DNA from: Mobula hypostoma
Lineage: Eukaryota
NCBI RefSeq assembly: GCF_963921235.1
Contig: NC_086097.1
Span: 21,888,001 to 21,952,000 of the forward strand
Direction: 5' to 3'
DNA length: 64,000 nt
Position 1 is the first letter of the stretch, and every line of letters begins with the position of its first letter. Shown in pieces: positions 32,560 through 64,000 of the stretch. The notes beneath the pieces are model-generated. The model had not been told where the DNA came from and did not search any database. It was given only the letters and a program-made list of their open reading frames with translations. The translations under genes and the position numbers were made by a program.

Positions 32560-33463
32560 TGTGACGAGAATACACATAGATTAAGATGTTAGCTGTCCTG
32601 TGCTGGCACCAGTGGGATCAGCTGTTGGTCTGCCACCTGTCTTCAGGAGAAAGAGAGATAAGGGAAACAATGGAGCAGCATTTGGAGATGTTAATGAAGG
32701 GACGGGAGAATTTAACGGAAGGAGAGCTGTCAAGATCGGCTCCCCCTTTGAACCCTGAACTGTTTGAAGTGATGGACAGGCGATACCCCAGCAGGGGGAT
32801 AAAAAGGGACAGGTTCGCTAAGGCAAGACATACACGACACCCCGAGGTAACGAGACCCTGGAAGCGGTGCGTCTCCCACAAGTCGGTGGGAAGTTTTGGA
32901 CGGCTGGTCGCGGGATCAAGCCATAGACGCACAGGGTGGAAAGGCACGATCGGCGGGAACCTGGTGTGTGTCCACCCTTGCCTGGGTGCCAGGTTCACCG
33001 CAGAGAAACGACCGTATCTGGAAACGGAGGGATCACGGTCCGTGACCTCAGATGACATCACAAAGGGCTCGCACGAAAGCTGACTGCGAAGAATATCAAA
33101 GGTCTGTGTGTGGAAGCCGTTTGAATATTCATTCGTTTTGCTCTCTCTCTCCTTCACCCCACTGTCCATCTCCCACGGCAGCGATTACTGCGAACTGAAC
33201 TGAACTAAATTGAACTGAACTTTGCGTCACTTTGAAACTGGTCATTTATCCCTAGACAACAATAGAGCTTGATTGATCCTGTTATCTTAATTCTGTGTAC
33301 ATGTGTGTTTATCATTGCTGAACTGTTGCATTTATTATCCTTTTGATTTAGAGTACTGTGTTGCTTGTTTCTTTAATAAAACTTTCTTAGTTCTAGTAAT
33401 CCAGACTCCAACTGAGTGATCCATTTCTGCTGGTTTGGCAACCCAGTTACGGGGTACGTAACA
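32560..33463 (+). mobile_element. Solo LTR related to the LTRs of the 58833-63736 element
   Basis: TGTGACGAGAATACACAT...GGGGTACGTAACA, same termini as the full element; TSD gtgc at 32556-32559 and 33464-33467; AATAAA at 33375-33380. Confidence 0.93.
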
Positions 33464-56752: not shown

Positions 56753-58832
56753 AAATTACTTCCTTGGAGCAAAGCTCTTTTTAATCTCCAGTAACTAAAG
56801 ACCATAAGATCATAAGATATAGGAGTAGAATTTGGCCCATCGAATTTGACTCATGAAGTTGTAGGTGATGCTGAGGCAGGCAGTGCCACTGAACACATGA
56901 GGGGTAGCAGATTGATGTAGTTAGTGGAGCTGCTGTCTCACAGCTCCAGAATTCCAGATCAACCCTGAACTCCACTACTGCCTCCATAACACTTGTACAT
57001 ATTTCCTGTCCCAGTTCCTCAGTACTGTACCGATGCAGTCTCAACCCAAATCCTCCATCAGTTGCTGCTCGAACTGTTGTGCACCTCCAGTAGATTATTT
57101 GTCGCTCTAGATTCCAGCATCTGCTATCTCTTCTGTCTCCACTGCAGGGGCTTCATCTGGGTGTTCCAGATTACTCCCAGATCTTCTGCACCAGTAACAC
57201 CTGAACTTCAATTCCCCTATTTTTTAAATAATCTTCCTCCATTTGATAAACAAACAATGAAAGGGTATGGGCAGTGTAGGAGGGAAGGGTTGGATTGATC
57301 ATGGAATATATTAAAAGGTTGGTACAACATAGTGGGCTGAAGGGCCTGTACTGTGCTGTAATGTCCTATGTTCTATGTTCTATGAAAACTGATGTGAAGT
57401 ACTCATTTTAATGCTCTACAATTTCTATATATTCCATCATTAATTTCACAATTCACCTTTCATGGGTCCCATGCTTATTTCTTATGCAACCATGGAATTT
57501 CTGCAGAATATATACTTGATCCTCACCCCCACCTCACAAACACACAGACACACTTTCCTTCGCCATCACAGAGACCACCAACCTACGTAGTTTGGAGGGT
57601 GTGTCAGCAATGCTGTTTCATTTGGCTATGTTTATGTATAGTTGGATGGTAATTAAACTTGAACTTGAATTTGAATTTGAGAGCCCTAAGTGGTGGAGGA
57701 TTCACTCAAGCTCTCTGCAGAACGAAGGATAGGGTAACTGGGACAATCCAGGCTGGAGAGGCTACATTCGTGGTCTGATGGATCACAGATGAAGACATCT
57801 AGGACTCAGCATGTAGCTTACAATCAGTGTCAACCTTTCAAGTCCGTTGAAGTACCTGCTAGATTCCTGGCTTGCGCCATCAGAATGGAAGTGGGAATCT
57901 GGAATTGATTCAAGGATATATTGCTCAGTCCTCTGAATACTGGAGGAGAGGCAGTCTGCAGCTGGCAGGTCTCAGTGGGATCTCAAAATACTGCCAGTTT
58001 GCTTCCAGAGTCCTGATTTCGAAAGTTAACAGGGAGTTCGAGACCCTCCCATTCCCCACCTGTCTGGATAGGGAACGCCATGTTGAAACACAGACCCTGA
58101 GCCTGGGAGTACAGGTGTATGTACAAACTGACTACTTGGTATTGGTAATTAGTTTATTATTGGCATGTCTTCCAATATGCAATGTAGAGCTTTTGTCTGC
58201 ACGCCATCCACGAACATCAAGCCATACATGAAGTTGCATAAGACATTACTGAGAACAAATTTGGAGTATTGTGTGCAGATCTGGTCACTTACCTACAGGG
58301 AAGCCCTCCCCACCATTGAGCACATCTGCACAAAACATTGTCACAGGAAAGCTGCATCCATCATCAGGGACCCCCCTCATCCAGGACATGCTCTCTTCTC
58401 ATGGCTGATATCAAGAAGAAAGTACAGGAGCCTCAGGACTCACACCACCAGGAATTGGAACAGTTATTACCCCTCAAACATCAGGCTCTTGAACCAAAGT
58501 GGATAACTTCACTCAACTTCACTTGCCTCATCATTGAAATATTCCCACAACCTGTGGGCTCAGTGTCAAGGACTCTCCATCTCATGTTACAACATAGAAC
58601 ATAGAACATAGAATAGTACAGCTCAGTACAGGCCCTTCGGCCCACAATGTTTTGCCGACCCTCAAACCCTGCCTCCCATATAAGCCCCCACCTGAGATTC
58701 CTCCATATACCTGTCTAGTAGTCTCTTAAACTTCACTGGAGTATCTGCCTCCACCACTGACTCAGGCAGTGCATTCCACGCACCAACCACTCTCTGAGTA
58801 ACATCCCCCTTGAACTTCCCACCCCTTACCTT

Positions 58833-59696
58833 TGTTACGTACCCCGTAACTGGGTTGCCAAACCAGCAGAAATGGATCACTCGGTTGGAGTCTGGAGTAC
58901 TAGAACTAAGAAAGTTTTTTTTAAGAAACAAGCAACACAGTAATCGAAAGGATAATAAATGCAACAGTTCAGCGATGATAAACACACATGTGCACAGAAT
59001 TAAGATAACAGCATCAATCAAGCTCTATCGTTGTCTAGGGGTAAATGACCAAATTTCAAAGTGACTCAAAGTTCAGTCCAGTTTAGTAGTTCAGTTCGCA
59101 GTAATCGTTGCCATGGCGATGGACAACGTGGGGGGAGAGAGAGAGAGAACAGGAACAACTGATCATTCAGACACTGCTTCACTCACAGACCAGCGAGATG
59201 GCTCACAAGCAGCTTTTGGGCAGGTCCTTGGTGATGTCACCTGAGGTCACCGACTGTGACCCCTCCTCCAGATGCGGTCGATCCTCTGCAGTGAACCCGG
59301 CACCCAGGCAAGGGCGGACACACACCGGGTTCCCGCTGATCGTACCTTTCCACCCTGTGCGTTGTCCGGTACTTCTCACCAACTCATGAGAGGTGTACCG
59401 CTTCCAGGGTCTCGTTACCTCGGGTGGCGTGTGTGTGCTTGTCTTAGCGAACCTGTCCCTTTTTATCCCCCTGCTGGGGTATCGCCTGTCCATCACTTCA
59501 AACAGTTCAAGGTTCAAAGGGGGGAGCCGCTCCAGACAGCTCTCTCTCCCACGTCCCTTCATTACACATCTCCAGACGCTGCTCCATTGTTCCTTATCTC
59601 TCCTTCCCCTGAGGGCAGGTGGCAGACCACTTGCTGATGTCACTGATGCTAACCCAGGCCAGCAAACATCTTAATTTTATGTGTATTCTCGTCACA
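58833..59696 (-). repeat. 3' LTR of the Gypsy element
   Basis: About 12 substitutions and no indels versus the 5' LTR by manual comparison; preceded on the minus strand by a polypurine tract. Confidence 0.95.
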
Positions 59697-59708
59697 CTTC
59701 CCCCCTTT
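59697..59708 (-). promoter_or_regulatory. Polypurine tract
   Basis: Minus strand AAAGGGGGGAAG directly before the TG of the 3' LTR. Confidence 0.9.
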
Positions 59709-59825
59709 AAGGATTTTTACCGGGAGGTAAAAATTACAAACATGAATACATTATTTGATACATACACAAATATACATCTTTATCAGCTATTTGGCTAACA
59801 CAGCGAGTTTGAAGCTGTCAACACC

Positions 59826-60761
59826 TTGACAGACAGTCATCACATTTTCTATTCCTTTTACACGTGTTATTAATAATCCCTTAGACCAGGCTCCAACTCA
59901 GCAAACTTCATAGTGGCCAAAAACACTGACGAATTGCGACCAATGTAACCTCTCATTTGGTTTTTTCCCGGACCACAATAACAAGGGTCGTCCCATTCCG
60001 ACTTAGTTTTCTCTCGCAAGGGCTTAGTAGGAGGGGGACGGGTATTGACCGCAGAGTTATTGCAAAACTTCCTGCAGTACCCCACCATCTCCAAGAGCCT
60101 TCTGAGGGCCCTCTTGTCTGTCGGGGTTGGGAGGTCAGCGATAGCTTGCACTGTAGCTTGCATCACTGCCAGCTGCCCCTGTGTCACCACAATTCCCAGG
60201 TAAGTGACCCTCGTGTGGCCGAATTCATTTTTTTCAAGGTTCACTATCAAGCTGGCTTCAGACAGCCGTATTAAATTGCCAATACACACCTCTGTGTTCA
60301 TCAGCCCTTTAGTCACTGAATTACTCATTATATATGCGTGTTCTTTACTGGGCTGCCCTATTGTAACAGACATCACCCAACGTCCCAGTTCTTTGCATTT
60401 CCTCGGGACAATCAAACACACGGGTGCGAGTCGTTTAATTACTTCTTCTAAAGATTCGCTTTGTTCGGGGATTAAGGGAGAGACCTTATCAGTAGACCTG
60501 GCCAAAACAATAGCCTTCTCCCATCTGATCGATCCCATACTAATCTTTTCAAAATGGTTTTTTTCTCTTATCAGGGGGCCCCTAGCTTCATTGATTTCCA
60601 CGCTAACACCGACTAGGTTTGTTAGCATACCAAAAGCCGGTGACCGTCTCAGTTCGCGTCGGTCATGATCAATAACATTTTTCCCCCTGGGCAGCTGGTA
60701 AATCTCTTTCATGATTCCACCAACTGTTTCCTTCAGCACCGCAAAATGTCCACCGGGGGGG
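59826..60761 (-). pseudogene. Degenerate pol remnant (RT thumb-like region and RNaseH C-terminal tail; no YxDD, no DDE core recognised)
   Basis: Open frame with RLSEASLIVNLEKNEFGHTRVTYLG and IADLPTPTDKRALRRLLEMVGYCRKF; the YIDD position reads VCIGN; a frameshifted KGIENV..DCLSR tail lies at ~59826-59865. Confidence 0.8.
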
Positions 60762-62774
60762 TACCTCGTGGGCCATGTTAAAAACCTCATCCCCATAACT
60801 CTTTTGCACCAGCCCCCACTCCTCATCTGCGGATACTGTACTTGATTTCCCTTTTAGCACTTCCTCCTCCGCACAATAGCCTACTAGTTCCCTTGTCAAG
60901 GCTGTGTCAGAGAGAGCGGTCTCTGCCAAAACTATCAGACCCTCGTCTCGCTCCTGCGTCTGCACAAATTCTTTCCTGGCTACTGCTACGTCCGTCCCAG
61001 CTCCCTCACTACCTCTTGTCTCACTACACCCCGTCTCATACAAGGTTGGCAGAAATGTTTCAGCTAAATTCACTATCGCGGGCCCGTGATGAACCTGTGA
61101 GTCCATGGGCGGGGCCTCAATGCTGGCAGGCTGACCTGTCAATCTCACGACTGGGAACACGATTCCCCCGGCGAGGTCATTACCGAGCAAGACTTCCACG
61201 TCTTTCATCGGTAATTCGGACCTCACCCCGATCGTGACTAGTCCAGAGACCAGGTTGCTCTGTAAGTGTATCTGGTGCAAAGAGACTGACTCTGTCCCTT
61301 CCCCAACACCTTTGACCTCTACCTCCCCAGTCTGGGTCTCTGAGCTAAACTCTAATACACTCTTCAGTATTAGTGACTGACACGCTCCCGTGTCTCTCCA
61401 GATCCGCACTGGAACTGGTTTTAACCCCTCCTTCACTGACACCAGTCCGGCCGAGATAAACCTCTCGCGCCCTTCCTGGACTTTTTCAGACCTGTCCTTC
61501 CCTAGCGGTTCGCTTAACAGCTCGATACAGCCATTCAAAATCTCCGCTTTTCCTTTCCCCGTCTCCTTCCTTGGGGCAAAGCACCTGGACGCAAAGTGTC
61601 CGACTTTCCCACAATTATAACAGACGACCCCAGGAGACTTCCTACCAGACTGCTCCCGGTCTACCTTATCCTTTTCACTAATCCCCGGCTTACTTTCTGA
61701 CTTTTCCGGCGGACTCTCCCCGCCGTCCTGACTACCCTTCTGGTAGCCTTTACTCGGGGCAAACTTCATTTTATGCGTCAACGCATACTCATCCGCTAAC
61801 TTAGCAGTTGCGGCTAACGTGGCTGCCTCTTTCTCATCGAGGTAGGGTCTCATACCCTCAGGGACACAACCTTTAAACTGCTCAATCAAGATCAGTTGTA
61901 GCAGTCTGTCATAATCCCCCTCTACCCCTTTCGAGGCGCACCAACGCTCACAATATGTTTGCATTTCACGAGCAAACTCCAAATACGTGCGGTCCCACTG
62001 CTTCCTCGCATTCTGGAACCTCTGCCGGTATGCCTCCGGGACCAACTCATAAATTCTGAGGATGGCCTCTTTCACCACCTCATACCTCTGGGCATCTTCC
62101 GCGAACAAAGCTGAGTAAGCTTGTTGGGCTTTCCCTTTCAGTACACTCTGAAGTAAAACAACCCACTTATCCCTCGGCCAGTCCTGACTTATAGCCACTT
62201 TTTCGAAGTGGAGGAAGTACCGATCCACGTCGGTATTGTCAAATGGGGGAACCAGCCTAACCTCCTGGGTCGCCCGGAACCCTCCACCTTGGTTCGGCAC
62301 GAGCCCCTGCTCGGCCCTTATCTTTAACTTCTCCAGCTCAAATTCCCTTTCCCTCTGTTTCCCTCTCTCTTCTCGCTCCCATTGCCTCTCTTTCTCCTCT
62401 CTCTCTAACTGTCTCTCTCTCTCTTTCTCTTCTCTCTCCAACTGTCTTTCTCTCTCTTGCCTTTCTAACTCTCTCTCCTTCTCTTCGTGTTCTAACTGCC
62501 GTACCCGGAACTCGTGCTCGAGTCTCAGTTTTTCAAGCTGTACCTGTACCGCGTCTCCAGCAGGTTTTTCAATATACACCACCCCCAGCTCACCTTGGGG
62601 AAACACACCTTTAGATACATAGTGCTCTACAATAGCTCTGTGTATCTCCTCTCTCCTCATTGTCGACTTCACCTTAGCAAGATTCAACTGTTTGGCCACA
62701 GCTATCAATTCCGATTTCCTGGCATCCTCTAATGCCTCCAAGGTCAGCGCCTTTATAAATTCCTCAGCCTCCAT
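60669..62774 (-). CDS. Gag-protease polyprotein (E/R-rich coiled coil, SCAN-like capsid domain, CCHC knuckle, aspartic protease, start of integrase Zn-binding region)
   Basis: 701-aa ORF; LVPEAYRQRF...LILIEQFKGCVP (SCAN-like); CYNCGKVGHFASRC (61581-61622); WRDTGA (DTG at 61386-61394); VLLGNDLAGG; ends near MAHEVPP. Confidence 0.9.
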   Translation of the reverse strand: MEAEEFIKALTLEALEDARKSELIAVAKQLNLAKVKSTMRREEIHRAIVEHYVSKGVFPQGELGVVYIEKPAGDAVQVQLEKLRLEHEFRVRQLEHEEKERELERQERERQLEREEKERERQLEREEKERQWEREERGKQREREFELEKLKIRAEQGLVPNQGGGFRATQEVRLVPPFDNTDVDRYFLHFEKVAISQDWPRDKWVVLLQSVLKGKAQQAYSALFAEDAQRYEVVKEAILRIYELVPEAYRQRFQNARKQWDRTYLEFAREMQTYCERWCASKGVEGDYDRLLQLILIEQFKGCVPEGMRPYLDEKEAATLAATAKLADEYALTHKMKFAPSKGYQKGSQDGGESPPEKSESKPGISEKDKVDREQSGRKSPGVVCYNCGKVGHFASRCFAPRKETGKGKAEILNGCIELLSEPLGKDRSEKVQEGRERFISAGLVSVKEGLKPVPVRIWRDTGACQSLILKSVLEFSSETQTGEVEVKGVGEGTESVSLHQIHLQSNLVSGLVTIGVRSELPMKDVEVLLGNDLAGGIVFPVVRLTGQPASIEAPPMDSQVHHGPAIVNLAETFLPTLYETGCSETRGSEGAGTDVAVARKEFVQTQERDEGLIVLAETALSDTALTRELVGYCAEEEVLKGKSSTVSADEEWGLVQKSYGDEVFNMAHEVPPRWTFCGAEGNSWWNHERDLPAAQGEKCY

Positions 62775-62850
62775 TTCTGCTGTTTGTCTTTTCTTTCTTT
62801 CAGGAATTTTAACCCAATCAATTTACTCCGTCCCAAATTTAGCATTCAAA

Positions 62851-62868
62851 ATCCCGGACGAGCCCCCA
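62851..62868 (-). promoter_or_regulatory. Primer-binding site complementary to the tRNA-Pro 3' end
   Basis: Minus strand TGGGGGCTCGTCCGGGAT, the 18-nt tRNA-Pro PBS known from MLV-type retroviruses. Confidence 0.92.
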
Positions 62869-62872
62869 CTTA

Positions 62873-63736
62873 TGTTACGTACCCCGTAACTGGGTTGCCA
62901 AACAAGCAGAAATTGATCACTCGGTTGGACTCTGGAGTACTAGAACTAAGAAAGTTTTATTTAAGAAACAAGCAACACAGTAATCGAAAGGATAATAAAT
63001 GCAACAGTTCAGCGATGATAAACACACATGTGCACAGAATTAAGATAACAGCATCAATCAAGCTCTATCGTTGTCTAGGGGTAAATGACCAAATTTCAAA
63101 GTGACTCAAAGTTCAGTCCAGTTTAGTAGTTCAGTTCGCAGTAATCATTGCCATGGCGATGGACAACGTGGGGGGAGAGAGAGAGAGAACAGGAACAACT
63201 AATCATTCAGACACTGCTTCACTCACAGACCGGCGAGATGGCTCACAAGCAGCTTTTGGGCAGGTCCTTGGTGATGTCACCTGAGGTCACCGACTGTGAC
63301 CCCTCCTCCAGATGCGGTCGATCCTCTGCAGTGAACCCGGCACCCAGGCAAGGGCGGACACACACCGGGTTCCCGCTGATCGTACCTTTCCACCCTGTGC
63401 GTTGTCCGATACTTCTCACCAACTCGTGAGAGGCGTACCGCTTCCAGGGTCTCGTTACCTCGGGTGGCGTGTGTGTGCTTGCCTTAGCGAACCGGTCCCT
63501 TTTTATCCCCCTGCTGGGGTATCGCCTGTCCATCACTTCAAACAGTTCAAGGTTCAAAGGGGGGAGCCGCTCCAGACAGCTCTCTCTCCCACGTCCCTTC
63601 ATTACACATCTCCAGACGCTGCTCCATTGTTCCTTATCTCTCCTTCCCCTGAGGGCAGGTGGCAGACCACTTGCTGATGTCACTGATGCTAACCCAGGCC
63701 AGCAAACATCTTAATTTTATGTGTATTCTCGTCACA
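62873..63736 (-). repeat. 5' LTR of the Gypsy element
   Basis: Minus strand TGTGACGAG...CGTAACA; followed after 4 nt by the PBS; AATAAA intact (tttatt 62956-62961). Confidence 0.95.
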
Positions 63737-64000
63737 CCTTAAAGCCATGTCCTCTTCTATTGAGCAGTGGTGCCCTGGGGAAGAGGCACTGGCTATCCAC
63801 TCTATCTATTCCTCTTATTATCTTGTACACCTCTATCATGTCTCCTCTCATCCTCCTTCTCTCCAAAGAGTAAAGCCCTAGCTCCCTTAATCTCTGATCA
63901 TAATGCATACTTTTTAAACCAGGCAGCATCCTGGTAAATCTCCTCTGTACCCTTTCTAATGCTTCCACATCCTACCTATAGTGAGGTGACCAGAACTGGA

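What the first reader, a model, noticed from the sequence alone, without database searches (positions are those of the whole stretch)
58833..63736. Young non-autonomous Gmr1-type LTR element with intact Gag-protease and an enzymatically gutted but open pol
Seen: all cis signals are intact (864-bp LTRs with ~12 substitutions, 4-bp TSD, PBS, PPT) and Gag(SCAN-like, CCHC)-protease is uninterrupted. Integrase begins right after the protease (AHEVPPGGHF), the Gmr1-type order. The DDE core, RT palm (YIDD position reads VCIGN) and most of RNaseH are absent, yet ~300 codons of the collapsed remnant stay stop-free. Inference: the pol is far more diverged than the LTRs, so the lineage kept transposing after losing its enzymes. 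It may build its own capsid, borrow Pol from a helper, and keep the pseudo-Pol tail under selection.
Basis: partly seen in the sequence, partly recalled or inferred. Interest (0 to 1): 0.75.

Follow-up and report, generated by a model that had tools for sequence, protein, structure and literature searches.

The report
Enzyme-less ray retrotransposon keeps dead frame
This is one recent copy of a jumping-gene family of manta and devil rays that still maintains its capsid and protease genes but lost its copying enzymes long ago, and that keeps the wrecked enzyme gene readable to its end although the protein sequence no longer seems to matter, probably to keep its RNA from being destroyed.

Summary
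LTRs (864 bp, 12 differences), 4-bp TSD, tRNA-Pro PBS, PPT, the SCAN/CCHC Gag-protease ORF and the gutted, stop-free Pol remnant are real. The element belongs to a multi-locus family of mobulid rays: 20 of 25 RefSeq models examined cross that border in one frame, 11 end at the same stop, and the same Pol deletions occur in two Mobula species. Gag and protease are under purifying selection along the transposing lineage (shared DNA variants in Gag: 7 synonymous, 0 replacement). The tail is not constrained as protein (5:13, the neutral ratio; RT thumb relative rate 14:1), yet its deletions are in frame and frameshifts are depleted. Best reading: a semi-autonomous Gmr1-like element that borrows RT and integrase and keeps its dead Pol as a translated spacer, probably against nonsense-mediated decay (inferred, untested). 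No intact helper was found. Gag-protease-only design is known from plants (Sabrina_SA, TR-GAG); mouse IAP 1Δ1 is the closest animal case. The scan noted Pol-less elements elsewhere, but not this family.

The parts
58829..58832 (.). target-site duplication, left copy (CCTT)
58833..59696 (-). 3' LTR, 864 bp, TG..CA; candidate poly(A) signal altered by the LTR difference at 58919
59697..59708 (-). polypurine tract abutting the 3' LTR
59818..59904 (-). old RNase H C-terminus, now out of frame and carrying a stop
59870..59980 (-). end of tail: RNase H scrap (59980-59906), 11 out-of-frame codons and the family-wide stop (59872-59870)
59981..60268 (-). tail: RT thumb/connection block, the only part still matching RT proteins
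60269..60331 (-). tail: RT palm scrap with VCIGN at the YIDD position, followed by an 18-aa deletion
60332..60661 (-). tail: integrase C-terminal/linker remnant, ending at the RT N-terminal deletion
60662..60754 (-). tail: integrase N-terminal remnant, ending at the deletion of CxxC and the DDE core
60755..60765 (-). frame break of this copy in a homopolymer run (private mutation or assembly error)
60669..62780 (-). Gag-protease ORF, 703 aa: coiled region 62537-62325, capsid/SCAN 62261-61773, CCHC 61622-61581, protease 61460-61176 with RDTGA at 61397-61383, linker to about 60780
62851..62868 (-). primer-binding site, tRNA-Pro type, 4 nt from the 5' LTR
62873..63736 (-). 5' LTR, 864 bp, AATAAA candidate at 62961-62956
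63737..63740 (.). target-site duplication, right copy (CCTT)
32560..33463 (+). solo LTR of an older related subfamily, 83% identical, same 16 terminal bases at both ends, TSD GTGC

Best explanation
A recent, already damaged copy of a long-lived semi-autonomous Gmr1-like (Ty3/gypsy) LTR family of mobulid rays. The ancestor had one Gag-PR-IN-RT-RH ORF. Successive in-frame deletions removed the integrase core, RT fingers, RNase H core and later 18 aa next to YxDD (shown). The family went on transposing across many chromosomes and two species (shown). It keeps its own capsid and protease under purifying selection (shown), so it probably packages its own RNA and takes RT and integrase from a Pol-complete relative (inferred; helper not found). 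The 290-codon Pol remnant drifts at about the neutral amino-acid rate but stays in frame to within about 50 nt of the old Pol stop (shown, with caveats). Most likely mechanism: ribosomes must run to the normal end of the RNA, because a stop just after the protease would lengthen the 3' UTR from about 0.95 to about 1.75 kb and expose the genomic RNA to nonsense-mediated decay; the tail is a translated spacer, probably cut off by the protease (inferred). Step confidences: family and non-autonomy 0.95; Gag-PR selected 0.9; open frame selected 0.75; NMD/RNA stability as the reason 0.5.
For: Recurrence: 8 of 13 hits of the tail are named Mobula proteins; 20 of 25 family models cross the Gag-PR/tail border in one frame and 11 of 25 end at the same stop; they lie on contigs of many different lengths; M. 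birostris and M. hypostoma rows interleave on a ladder-like tail tree; the two assemblies' species split about 20 Mya (bioRxiv 10.64898/2026.10.27.761883, passages). A contig of another coded organism (X18) bridges three of the deletion junctions without a gap (table 8 records 10, 11; junction places). Selection on Gag-PR: shared DNA variants Gag 7 synonymous:0 replacement against tail 5:13, Fisher p 0.0016, while variants private to this copy in Gag are 2:4; shared amino-acid changes 13/477 sites in Gag+PR against 23/295 in the tail, p 0.002, singletons alike, p 0.30. Relative rates against pol-bearing relatives: capsid 11:13, protease 6:7 and 9:8, RT thumb 14:1 (p 0.001). Frame kept: three large deletions against Pristis P0011 and five smaller indels against P0125 all leave the frame; non-triplet indel rows 6 in 265 non-coding nt against 1 in 882 tail nt, p 0.0009, worst case 0.013; about 7-10 stops expected on the P0125-to-family path, none seen. 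The one lineage-wide frameshift is in the last 30 codons, and the part left out of frame has gained a stop. Four stingray models with a different, duplicate-derived tail of about 300 aa also share one end at 65-76% tail identity. Premature stops trigger NMD of unspliced RSV RNA (PMC5294993, passages).
Against: Only 40 of 258 substitution sites and 12 of 15 indel rows were shown, chosen by the tool, so a shared stop could be hidden; 11 of the 20 tail sites lie under one X18 contig. RefSeq models are biased towards open frames. 9 of the 20 border-crossing models end before the family stop, and two pairs (P0148/P0152, P0151/P0127) share the same early end; these may be transposed frameshifted copies or homopolymer errors. 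Within the 18-aa-deleted family alone only 2.5-3.5 stops are expected (P0 0.03-0.08). AT-rich non-coding DNA is more indel-prone, which inflates the indel contrast. The RT thumb is better conserved than the rest of the tail against P0125 (49/69 vs 101/192, p 0.010; p 0.08-0.12 against P0121-P0123), which a pure spacer does not predict. No intact helper: none of the 120 long proteins listed is from Mobula; P0126 lacks the first RT aspartate and P0162 breaks inside integrase. Plant Gag-Pro families do without such a tail (PMC9744471, passages). NMD was not tested.
Confidence: 0.55

Rival explanations
1. The tail is a working protein part: like the IAP 1Δ1 Gag-Pol fusion it acts in cis, for example by letting Gag-PR-tail co-assemble with the helper's Pol through the retained RT thumb/connection.
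For: Thumb block more conserved than the rest of the tail (p 0.010) and spared by every deletion; precedent of a cis-acting in-frame Gag-Pol fusion (PMC6466679 and PMC7411935, passages).
Against: Neutral synonymous share in the tail; 14:1 excess of changes in the thumb itself; within-family thumb versus rest not significant (p 0.25, one search set B). Better thumb identity could come from template switching with the helper, since it is the longest block still alignable (inference).
Confidence: 0.17
2. The open frame is a by-product: few master copies, slow ray mutation rate and annotation bias; nothing selects on the tail, which is simply being eroded.
For: Modest P0 (0.03-0.08) within the younger family; 9 of 20 models end early, with shared early ends; protein databases favour long ORFs; variant table incomplete.
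Against: Eight indels in frame, depletion of non-triplet indels in unannotated read data, 7-10 stops expected on the deeper path, parallel open tail in stingrays.
Confidence: 0.2
3. The frame is kept for a translation-coupled reason other than NMD, such as polyprotein size for particle assembly and protease activation, or ribosome transit needed for RNA folding and packaging.
For: Gmr elements make Gag and Pol as one ORF (PMC11117352, passages); unrelated tails of similar length in two ray lineages.
Against: The tail keeps shrinking by in-frame deletions (18, 7 and 6 aa), so exact size is not held.
Confidence: 0.08
4. One-off decayed copy of an autonomous element, or a domesticated host gene.
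For: This copy is broken at the border and has four private replacement changes in Gag.
Against: Same deletions at many loci in two species; intact LTR pair and TSD inside a LINE.
Confidence: 0.02

Closest known systems
Gmr1-like Ty3/gypsy retrotransposons (bioRxiv 10.1101/2025.03.03.638093 and PMC11117352; passages)
   Same: SCAN-type capsid, PR-IN-RT-RH order, single Gag-Pol ORF; collinear with Pristis polyproteins P0011 and P0144.
   Different: All catalytic cores of IN, RT and RNase H are deleted; the element cannot be autonomous.
Wheat RLG_Sabrina_SA / RLG_Quinta and plant TR-GAG, Gag(-Pro)-only families (PMC9744471, PMC11302176, bioRxiv 10.64898/2026.03.01.708851; passages)
   Same: Long-lived, multi-copy, keeps Gag-protease, lacks RT and integrase, depends on a partner.
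   Different: Vertebrate host and Gmr1 lineage; a Pol-derived tail stays fused in frame. Non-autonomous RLC_Angela, in contrast, has a CDS with numerous frameshifts and stops. The sugar beet survey lists families with decayed POL remnants; in the passages seen it does not test their frame.
Mouse IAP 1Δ1 (PMC6466679, PMC7411935; passages)
   Same: In-frame internal deletion gives a Gag-Pol fusion ORF; non-autonomous yet successful.
   Different: 1Δ1 loses part of Gag and needs Gag in trans, has one deletion, and its fusion protein was shown to act in cis; here Gag-PR is whole, deletions are multiple and the tail drifts neutrally.
Zebrafish BHIKHARI (PMC12067270; passages)
   Same: Fish LTR family, non-autonomous, single Gag ORF.
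   Different: Lokiretrovirus-related, no pol at all, no protease reported in the passages seen.

Membership tests
Gmr1-like Ty3/gypsy | SCAN-type capsid domain in Gag | tested here: met
   Pfam PF02023 E 1.3e-12
Gmr1-like Ty3/gypsy | domain order PR-IN-RT-RH | tested here: met
   remnants lie in this order, collinear with P0011
Gmr1-like Ty3/gypsy | Gag and Pol in one ORF | tested here: met
   20 of 25 family models cross the border in one frame; this copy is broken there
Gmr1-like Ty3/gypsy | placement in the Gmr clade by an RT tree | not tested
   RT core is deleted; only pairwise identity of the thumb to P0126 (50/69) and P0144 (44/69) was measured
Autonomous LTR retrotransposon | intact RT, RNase H and integrase catalytic residues | tested here: not met
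Semi-autonomous Gag-Pro LTR elements (Sabrina_SA / TR-GAG type) | Gag-protease ORF maintained | tested here: met
Semi-autonomous Gag-Pro LTR elements (Sabrina_SA / TR-GAG type) | amplified as a family without RT and integrase | tested here: met
Semi-autonomous Gag-Pro LTR elements (Sabrina_SA / TR-GAG type) | autonomous partner sharing PBS and LTR termini, active at the same time | not testable with these tools
   no genome held; only broken pol-bearing Mobula proteins seen, without DNA
IAP 1Δ1-type | fusion protein acts in cis on retrotransposition | not testable with these tools
   needs cell assays; sequence evolution argues against a protein role
IAP 1Δ1-type | Gag partly deleted and needed in trans | tested here: not met
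   Gag is full length and collinear with autonomous relatives
Domesticated Gag/SCAN gene | single fixed locus without LTRs | tested here: not met

The most novel reading that the evidence does not exclude
Ray LTR parasites have repeatedly turned the Pol slot into an obligatory translated tail, and in this lineage the deletions have trimmed it around an RT thumb/connection block that serves as a cis-acting hook by which the parasite's Gag-protease captures a helper's Pol: an enzyme reduced to an adaptor for theft.
Probability: 0.15. Interest if true: 0.72.

Novelty: new variant of a known kind. Interest (0 to 1): 0.42.

Why it matters
It separates two things usually read together: an ORF can be held open for a long time while its amino acids drift neutrally. 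If confirmed genome-wide, the family is a natural, many-copy test of whether RNA surveillance shapes defective retroelements, with early-stop copies as built-in controls. It extends the plant 'semi-autonomous' Gag-protease strategy to a vertebrate Gmr1 lineage that has lasted across a species split of about 20 My. It also explains a set of uncharacterised or misnamed Mobula gene models (for example P0149, labelled as a MACC1 isoform). The basic design is not new.

Tried and rejected
No whole genome is held, so copies could not be collected as DNA. Pfam found no family in the tail (0 families at E up to 1). Metagenome scan: 95 pattern matches, none confirmed. Search of 1.84 billion representatives: of the 150 listed, only P0125 and P0151 match the tail's integrase-side part; the rest match the RT palm/thumb region only, so no relative of this tail was seen outside Mobula. 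AlphaFold of the tail on an 8-row alignment gave pLDDT 28 throughout and says nothing either way; no fold search was run on it. No RNA holder is on record; X7 is only guessed to be RNA, so expression is not shown. Summed contig depth is not a copy number and was not used as one. Whether the frame break is real could not be decided: the indel row at 60755 has 2698 of 2848 depth in X7 but 920 of 6612 in X1; M. hypostoma was assembled from Nanopore reads, and the window's source is not established. One search had a region-boundary bug in set A (double-counted Gag); one search replaces those numbers, and its last comparison (integrase N-terminus) failed and was not repeated. Ten paper searches showed no description of this family or of a neutral-but-open Pol tail in their listings; the library lacks most subscription papers and Repbase/Dfam were not available. 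Supplements were not read; the repeat tables of the Mobula preprint (closed) could bear on novelty. Earlier-findings look-ups by sequence returned nothing.

Full report
Observation. The element lies on the minus strand. Its LTRs (62873-63736 and 58833-59696) are 864 bp with 12 substitutions, K2P 0.014, and CCTT flanks both ends. It splits one LINE reading frame that resumes across the duplication, so this is a clean insertion. The PBS (62868-62851) is the 18-mer printed as the MLV proline PBS in PMC4587795 (passages); a purine tract abuts the 3' LTR. The ORF 62780-60669 encodes 703 aa with SCAN (E 1e-12) and CCHC (E 4e-6) and a weak retroviral protease match (E 0.18) with an RDTGA site. A second frame is open from 60853 to 59873 and has no Pfam match. 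A linker of about 135 aa separates protease and integrase, and one LTR difference hits the candidate poly(A) signal of the 3' LTR. 'Young' holds in sequence terms; no rate was measured, and rays evolve slowly (my own knowledge), so the age in years is open.

What the tail is. Against the complete Pristis polyprotein P0011, the older relative P0125 lacks residues 609-897 (integrase CxxC and DDE core) and 1014-1141 (RT fingers and first aspartate); the window's tail shares these junctions, lacks a further 18 aa after the YxDD position, and lacks 1276-1362 (RNase H core). The pieces lie in the order IN, RT, RH, after a SCAN-type Gag and protease, which is the Gmr1-like layout (bioRxiv 10.1101/2025.03.03.638093, passages); Gmr elements carry Gag and Pol in one ORF (PMC11117352, passages).

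It is a family. No genome was held, so copies came from protein databases and sequencing runs. Of 13 hits of the tail among 1985 candidates, 8 are named Mobula proteins. The Gag-protease search listed 120 of 738 hits; the best 13 are Mobula, at 79-94% identity, and cluster members added more. I took 25 family models (23 M. hypostoma, 2 M. birostris), leaving out P0158, P0160, P0266, P0272, P0276 and P0278-P0283, which do not reach the border, and the more distant P0125, P0126 and P0162. Of the 25, 20 cross the Gag-PR/tail border in one frame and 11 end at the same stop as the window's tail; 9 of the 20 end earlier. They sit on contigs of many lengths. On a tree of 17 tails the two species interleave and the family forms a ladder from P0125 to a young M. 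hypostoma clade; the two species split about 20 Mya according to bioRxiv 10.64898/2026.10.27.761883 (passages). In 4 of 4 runs laid, from three coded organisms, all 30 bins have depth, 19,197 contigs of X1 lie on 3.2 kb, and X18 contigs bridge three deletion junctions. A solo LTR of an older subfamily lies in the same window (32560-33463, 83%, TSD GTGC).

Selection. One search showed 40 of 258 variant sites. Splitting them into private to this copy and shared among copies gives Gag 7 synonymous:0 replacement shared and 2:4 private; linker 3:2 shared; tail 5:13 shared (Fisher p 0.0016 against Gag). The neutral synonymous share is about 0.28-0.30, which is what the tail shows. None of the protease sites was among those shown. 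In 9 database copies plus the window's two frames, shared amino-acid changes are 13 per 477 sites in Gag+PR and 23 per 295 in the tail (p 0.002), with singletons alike (p 0.30). With Pristis P0144 as outgroup, capsid (11:13) and protease (6:7, 9:8) show no acceleration against integrase-bearing ray relatives, but the RT thumb shows 14:1 and thumb plus connection 24:1. So Gag-PR is maintained by the transposing lineage and the tail is released as a protein.

The frame, however, is kept. Three large deletions and five smaller indels against P0125 leave the frame. Among the 12 of 15 indel rows shown, non-triplet rows are 6 in 265 non-coding nt and 1 in 882 tail nt, apart from the break itself (p 0.0009; 0.013 if all hidden rows were tail frameshifts); three more lie in Gag and come mainly from one X7 contig. 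Tree lengths predict 7-10 stops between P0125 and the family base and 2.5-3.5 along the family backbone; none is fixed. The only lineage-wide frameshift is in the last 30 codons, puts the stop about 50 nt before the old Pol stop, and the segment left out of frame has since gained a stop. Against this: annotation favours open frames, 218 sites are unseen, non-coding DNA is AT-rich, and two pairs of models share early ends at homopolymer runs, which may be real transposed frameshifts or Nanopore errors.

Mechanism. Shown: loss of all three catalytic cores, continued amplification, selection on Gag-PR, neutral drift of the tail, and with the caveats above selection on its frame. Inferred: the element builds its own particles and borrows RT and integrase. 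No helper was found; none of the 120 listed long polyproteins is from Mobula, P0126 lacks the first RT aspartate and P0162 breaks in integrase, though they show that a Pol-bearing sister lineage existed (SCAN 87%, protease 73% identical). Inferred, 0.5: a stop right after the protease would still give Gag-PR, so the cost of a stop must lie elsewhere, most simply in the RNA. The distance from stop to the AATAAA candidate is 949 nt for the family stop and 1748 nt for the upstream stop in this copy. Long 3' UTRs and premature stops trigger NMD, as in unspliced RSV RNA (PMC5294993, passages). Tolerance of frameshifts only near the old stop, and continued shrinkage by in-frame steps, fit this. A parallel hint: four stingray models carry Gag-PR plus about 300 aa of a different tail, weakly similar to a second copy of SCAN-to-protease (E 1e-4 to 1e-9 for five of nine tested), and end at the same place at 65-76% tail identity; their DNA was not seen. 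The main rival is a cis-acting protein role as in IAP 1Δ1 (PMC6466679, PMC7411935; passages): the thumb block is better conserved than the rest of the tail against P0125 (49/69 vs 101/192, p 0.010), but it is also 14:1 accelerated, and exchange with the helper could explain the excess.

Comparison and verdict. It works like wheat Sabrina_SA and Quinta and the plant TR-GAG families, which keep Gag or Gag-Pro and depend on a partner (PMC9744471, PMC11302176, bioRxiv 10.64898/2026.03.01.708851; passages); two of three membership features were met and the partner could not be tested. It derives from Gmr1-like elements by three tested features; an RT tree was not made. Zebrafish BHIKHARI is a vertebrate Gag-only precedent (PMC12067270, passages). 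All papers were seen as search listings and keyword passages only, none in full. The ten searches listed no account of this family or of a neutral-but-open Pol tail. Earlier scan notes report Pol-less Gag-protease elements in other genomes and Pol-replaced families in this one (unchecked), but no look-alike of this family.

Noticed in passing
window 32560-33463 (+): Solo LTR of a related older subfamily, 904 bp, 83% identical, same 16 terminal bases, TSD GTGC.
   Followed up: partly
window 58560-58832 and 63737-64000 (-): The element sits inside the 3' end of a LINE ORF whose frame resumes across the TSD; the label CR1/L2-type is from my own knowledge.
   Followed up: partly
proteins P0166, P0167, P0172, P0184, P0284 (Hypanus, Hemitrygon) and P0164 (unnamed): A second ray lineage with Gag-protease followed by an open tail of 220-320 aa that looks like a decayed duplicate of SCAN-to-protease; four share the same C-terminal end. 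DNA context unseen.
   Followed up: partly
proteins P0149, P0277, P0156, P0272, P0126: RefSeq models named after host genes (MACC1, PPM1L, phosphatidylserine decarboxylase, UBE2G2, HSPB1-associated protein 1) consist of this element's or its relative's ORF, suggesting insertions in those genes annotated as isoforms.
   Followed up: no
window 62325-62537 (-): The Gag coiled region is a short E/R-rich repeat whose length varies between copies (models of 939-1004 aa; joints).
   Followed up: no
P0125 against P0011: The RT N-terminal deletion joins two places that both read RM in the parent, a short homology typical of template-switch deletions (inference).
   Followed up: no
window 62851-62868 (-): PBS identical to the MLV proline PBS, 4 nt away from the LTR end.
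   Followed up: yes
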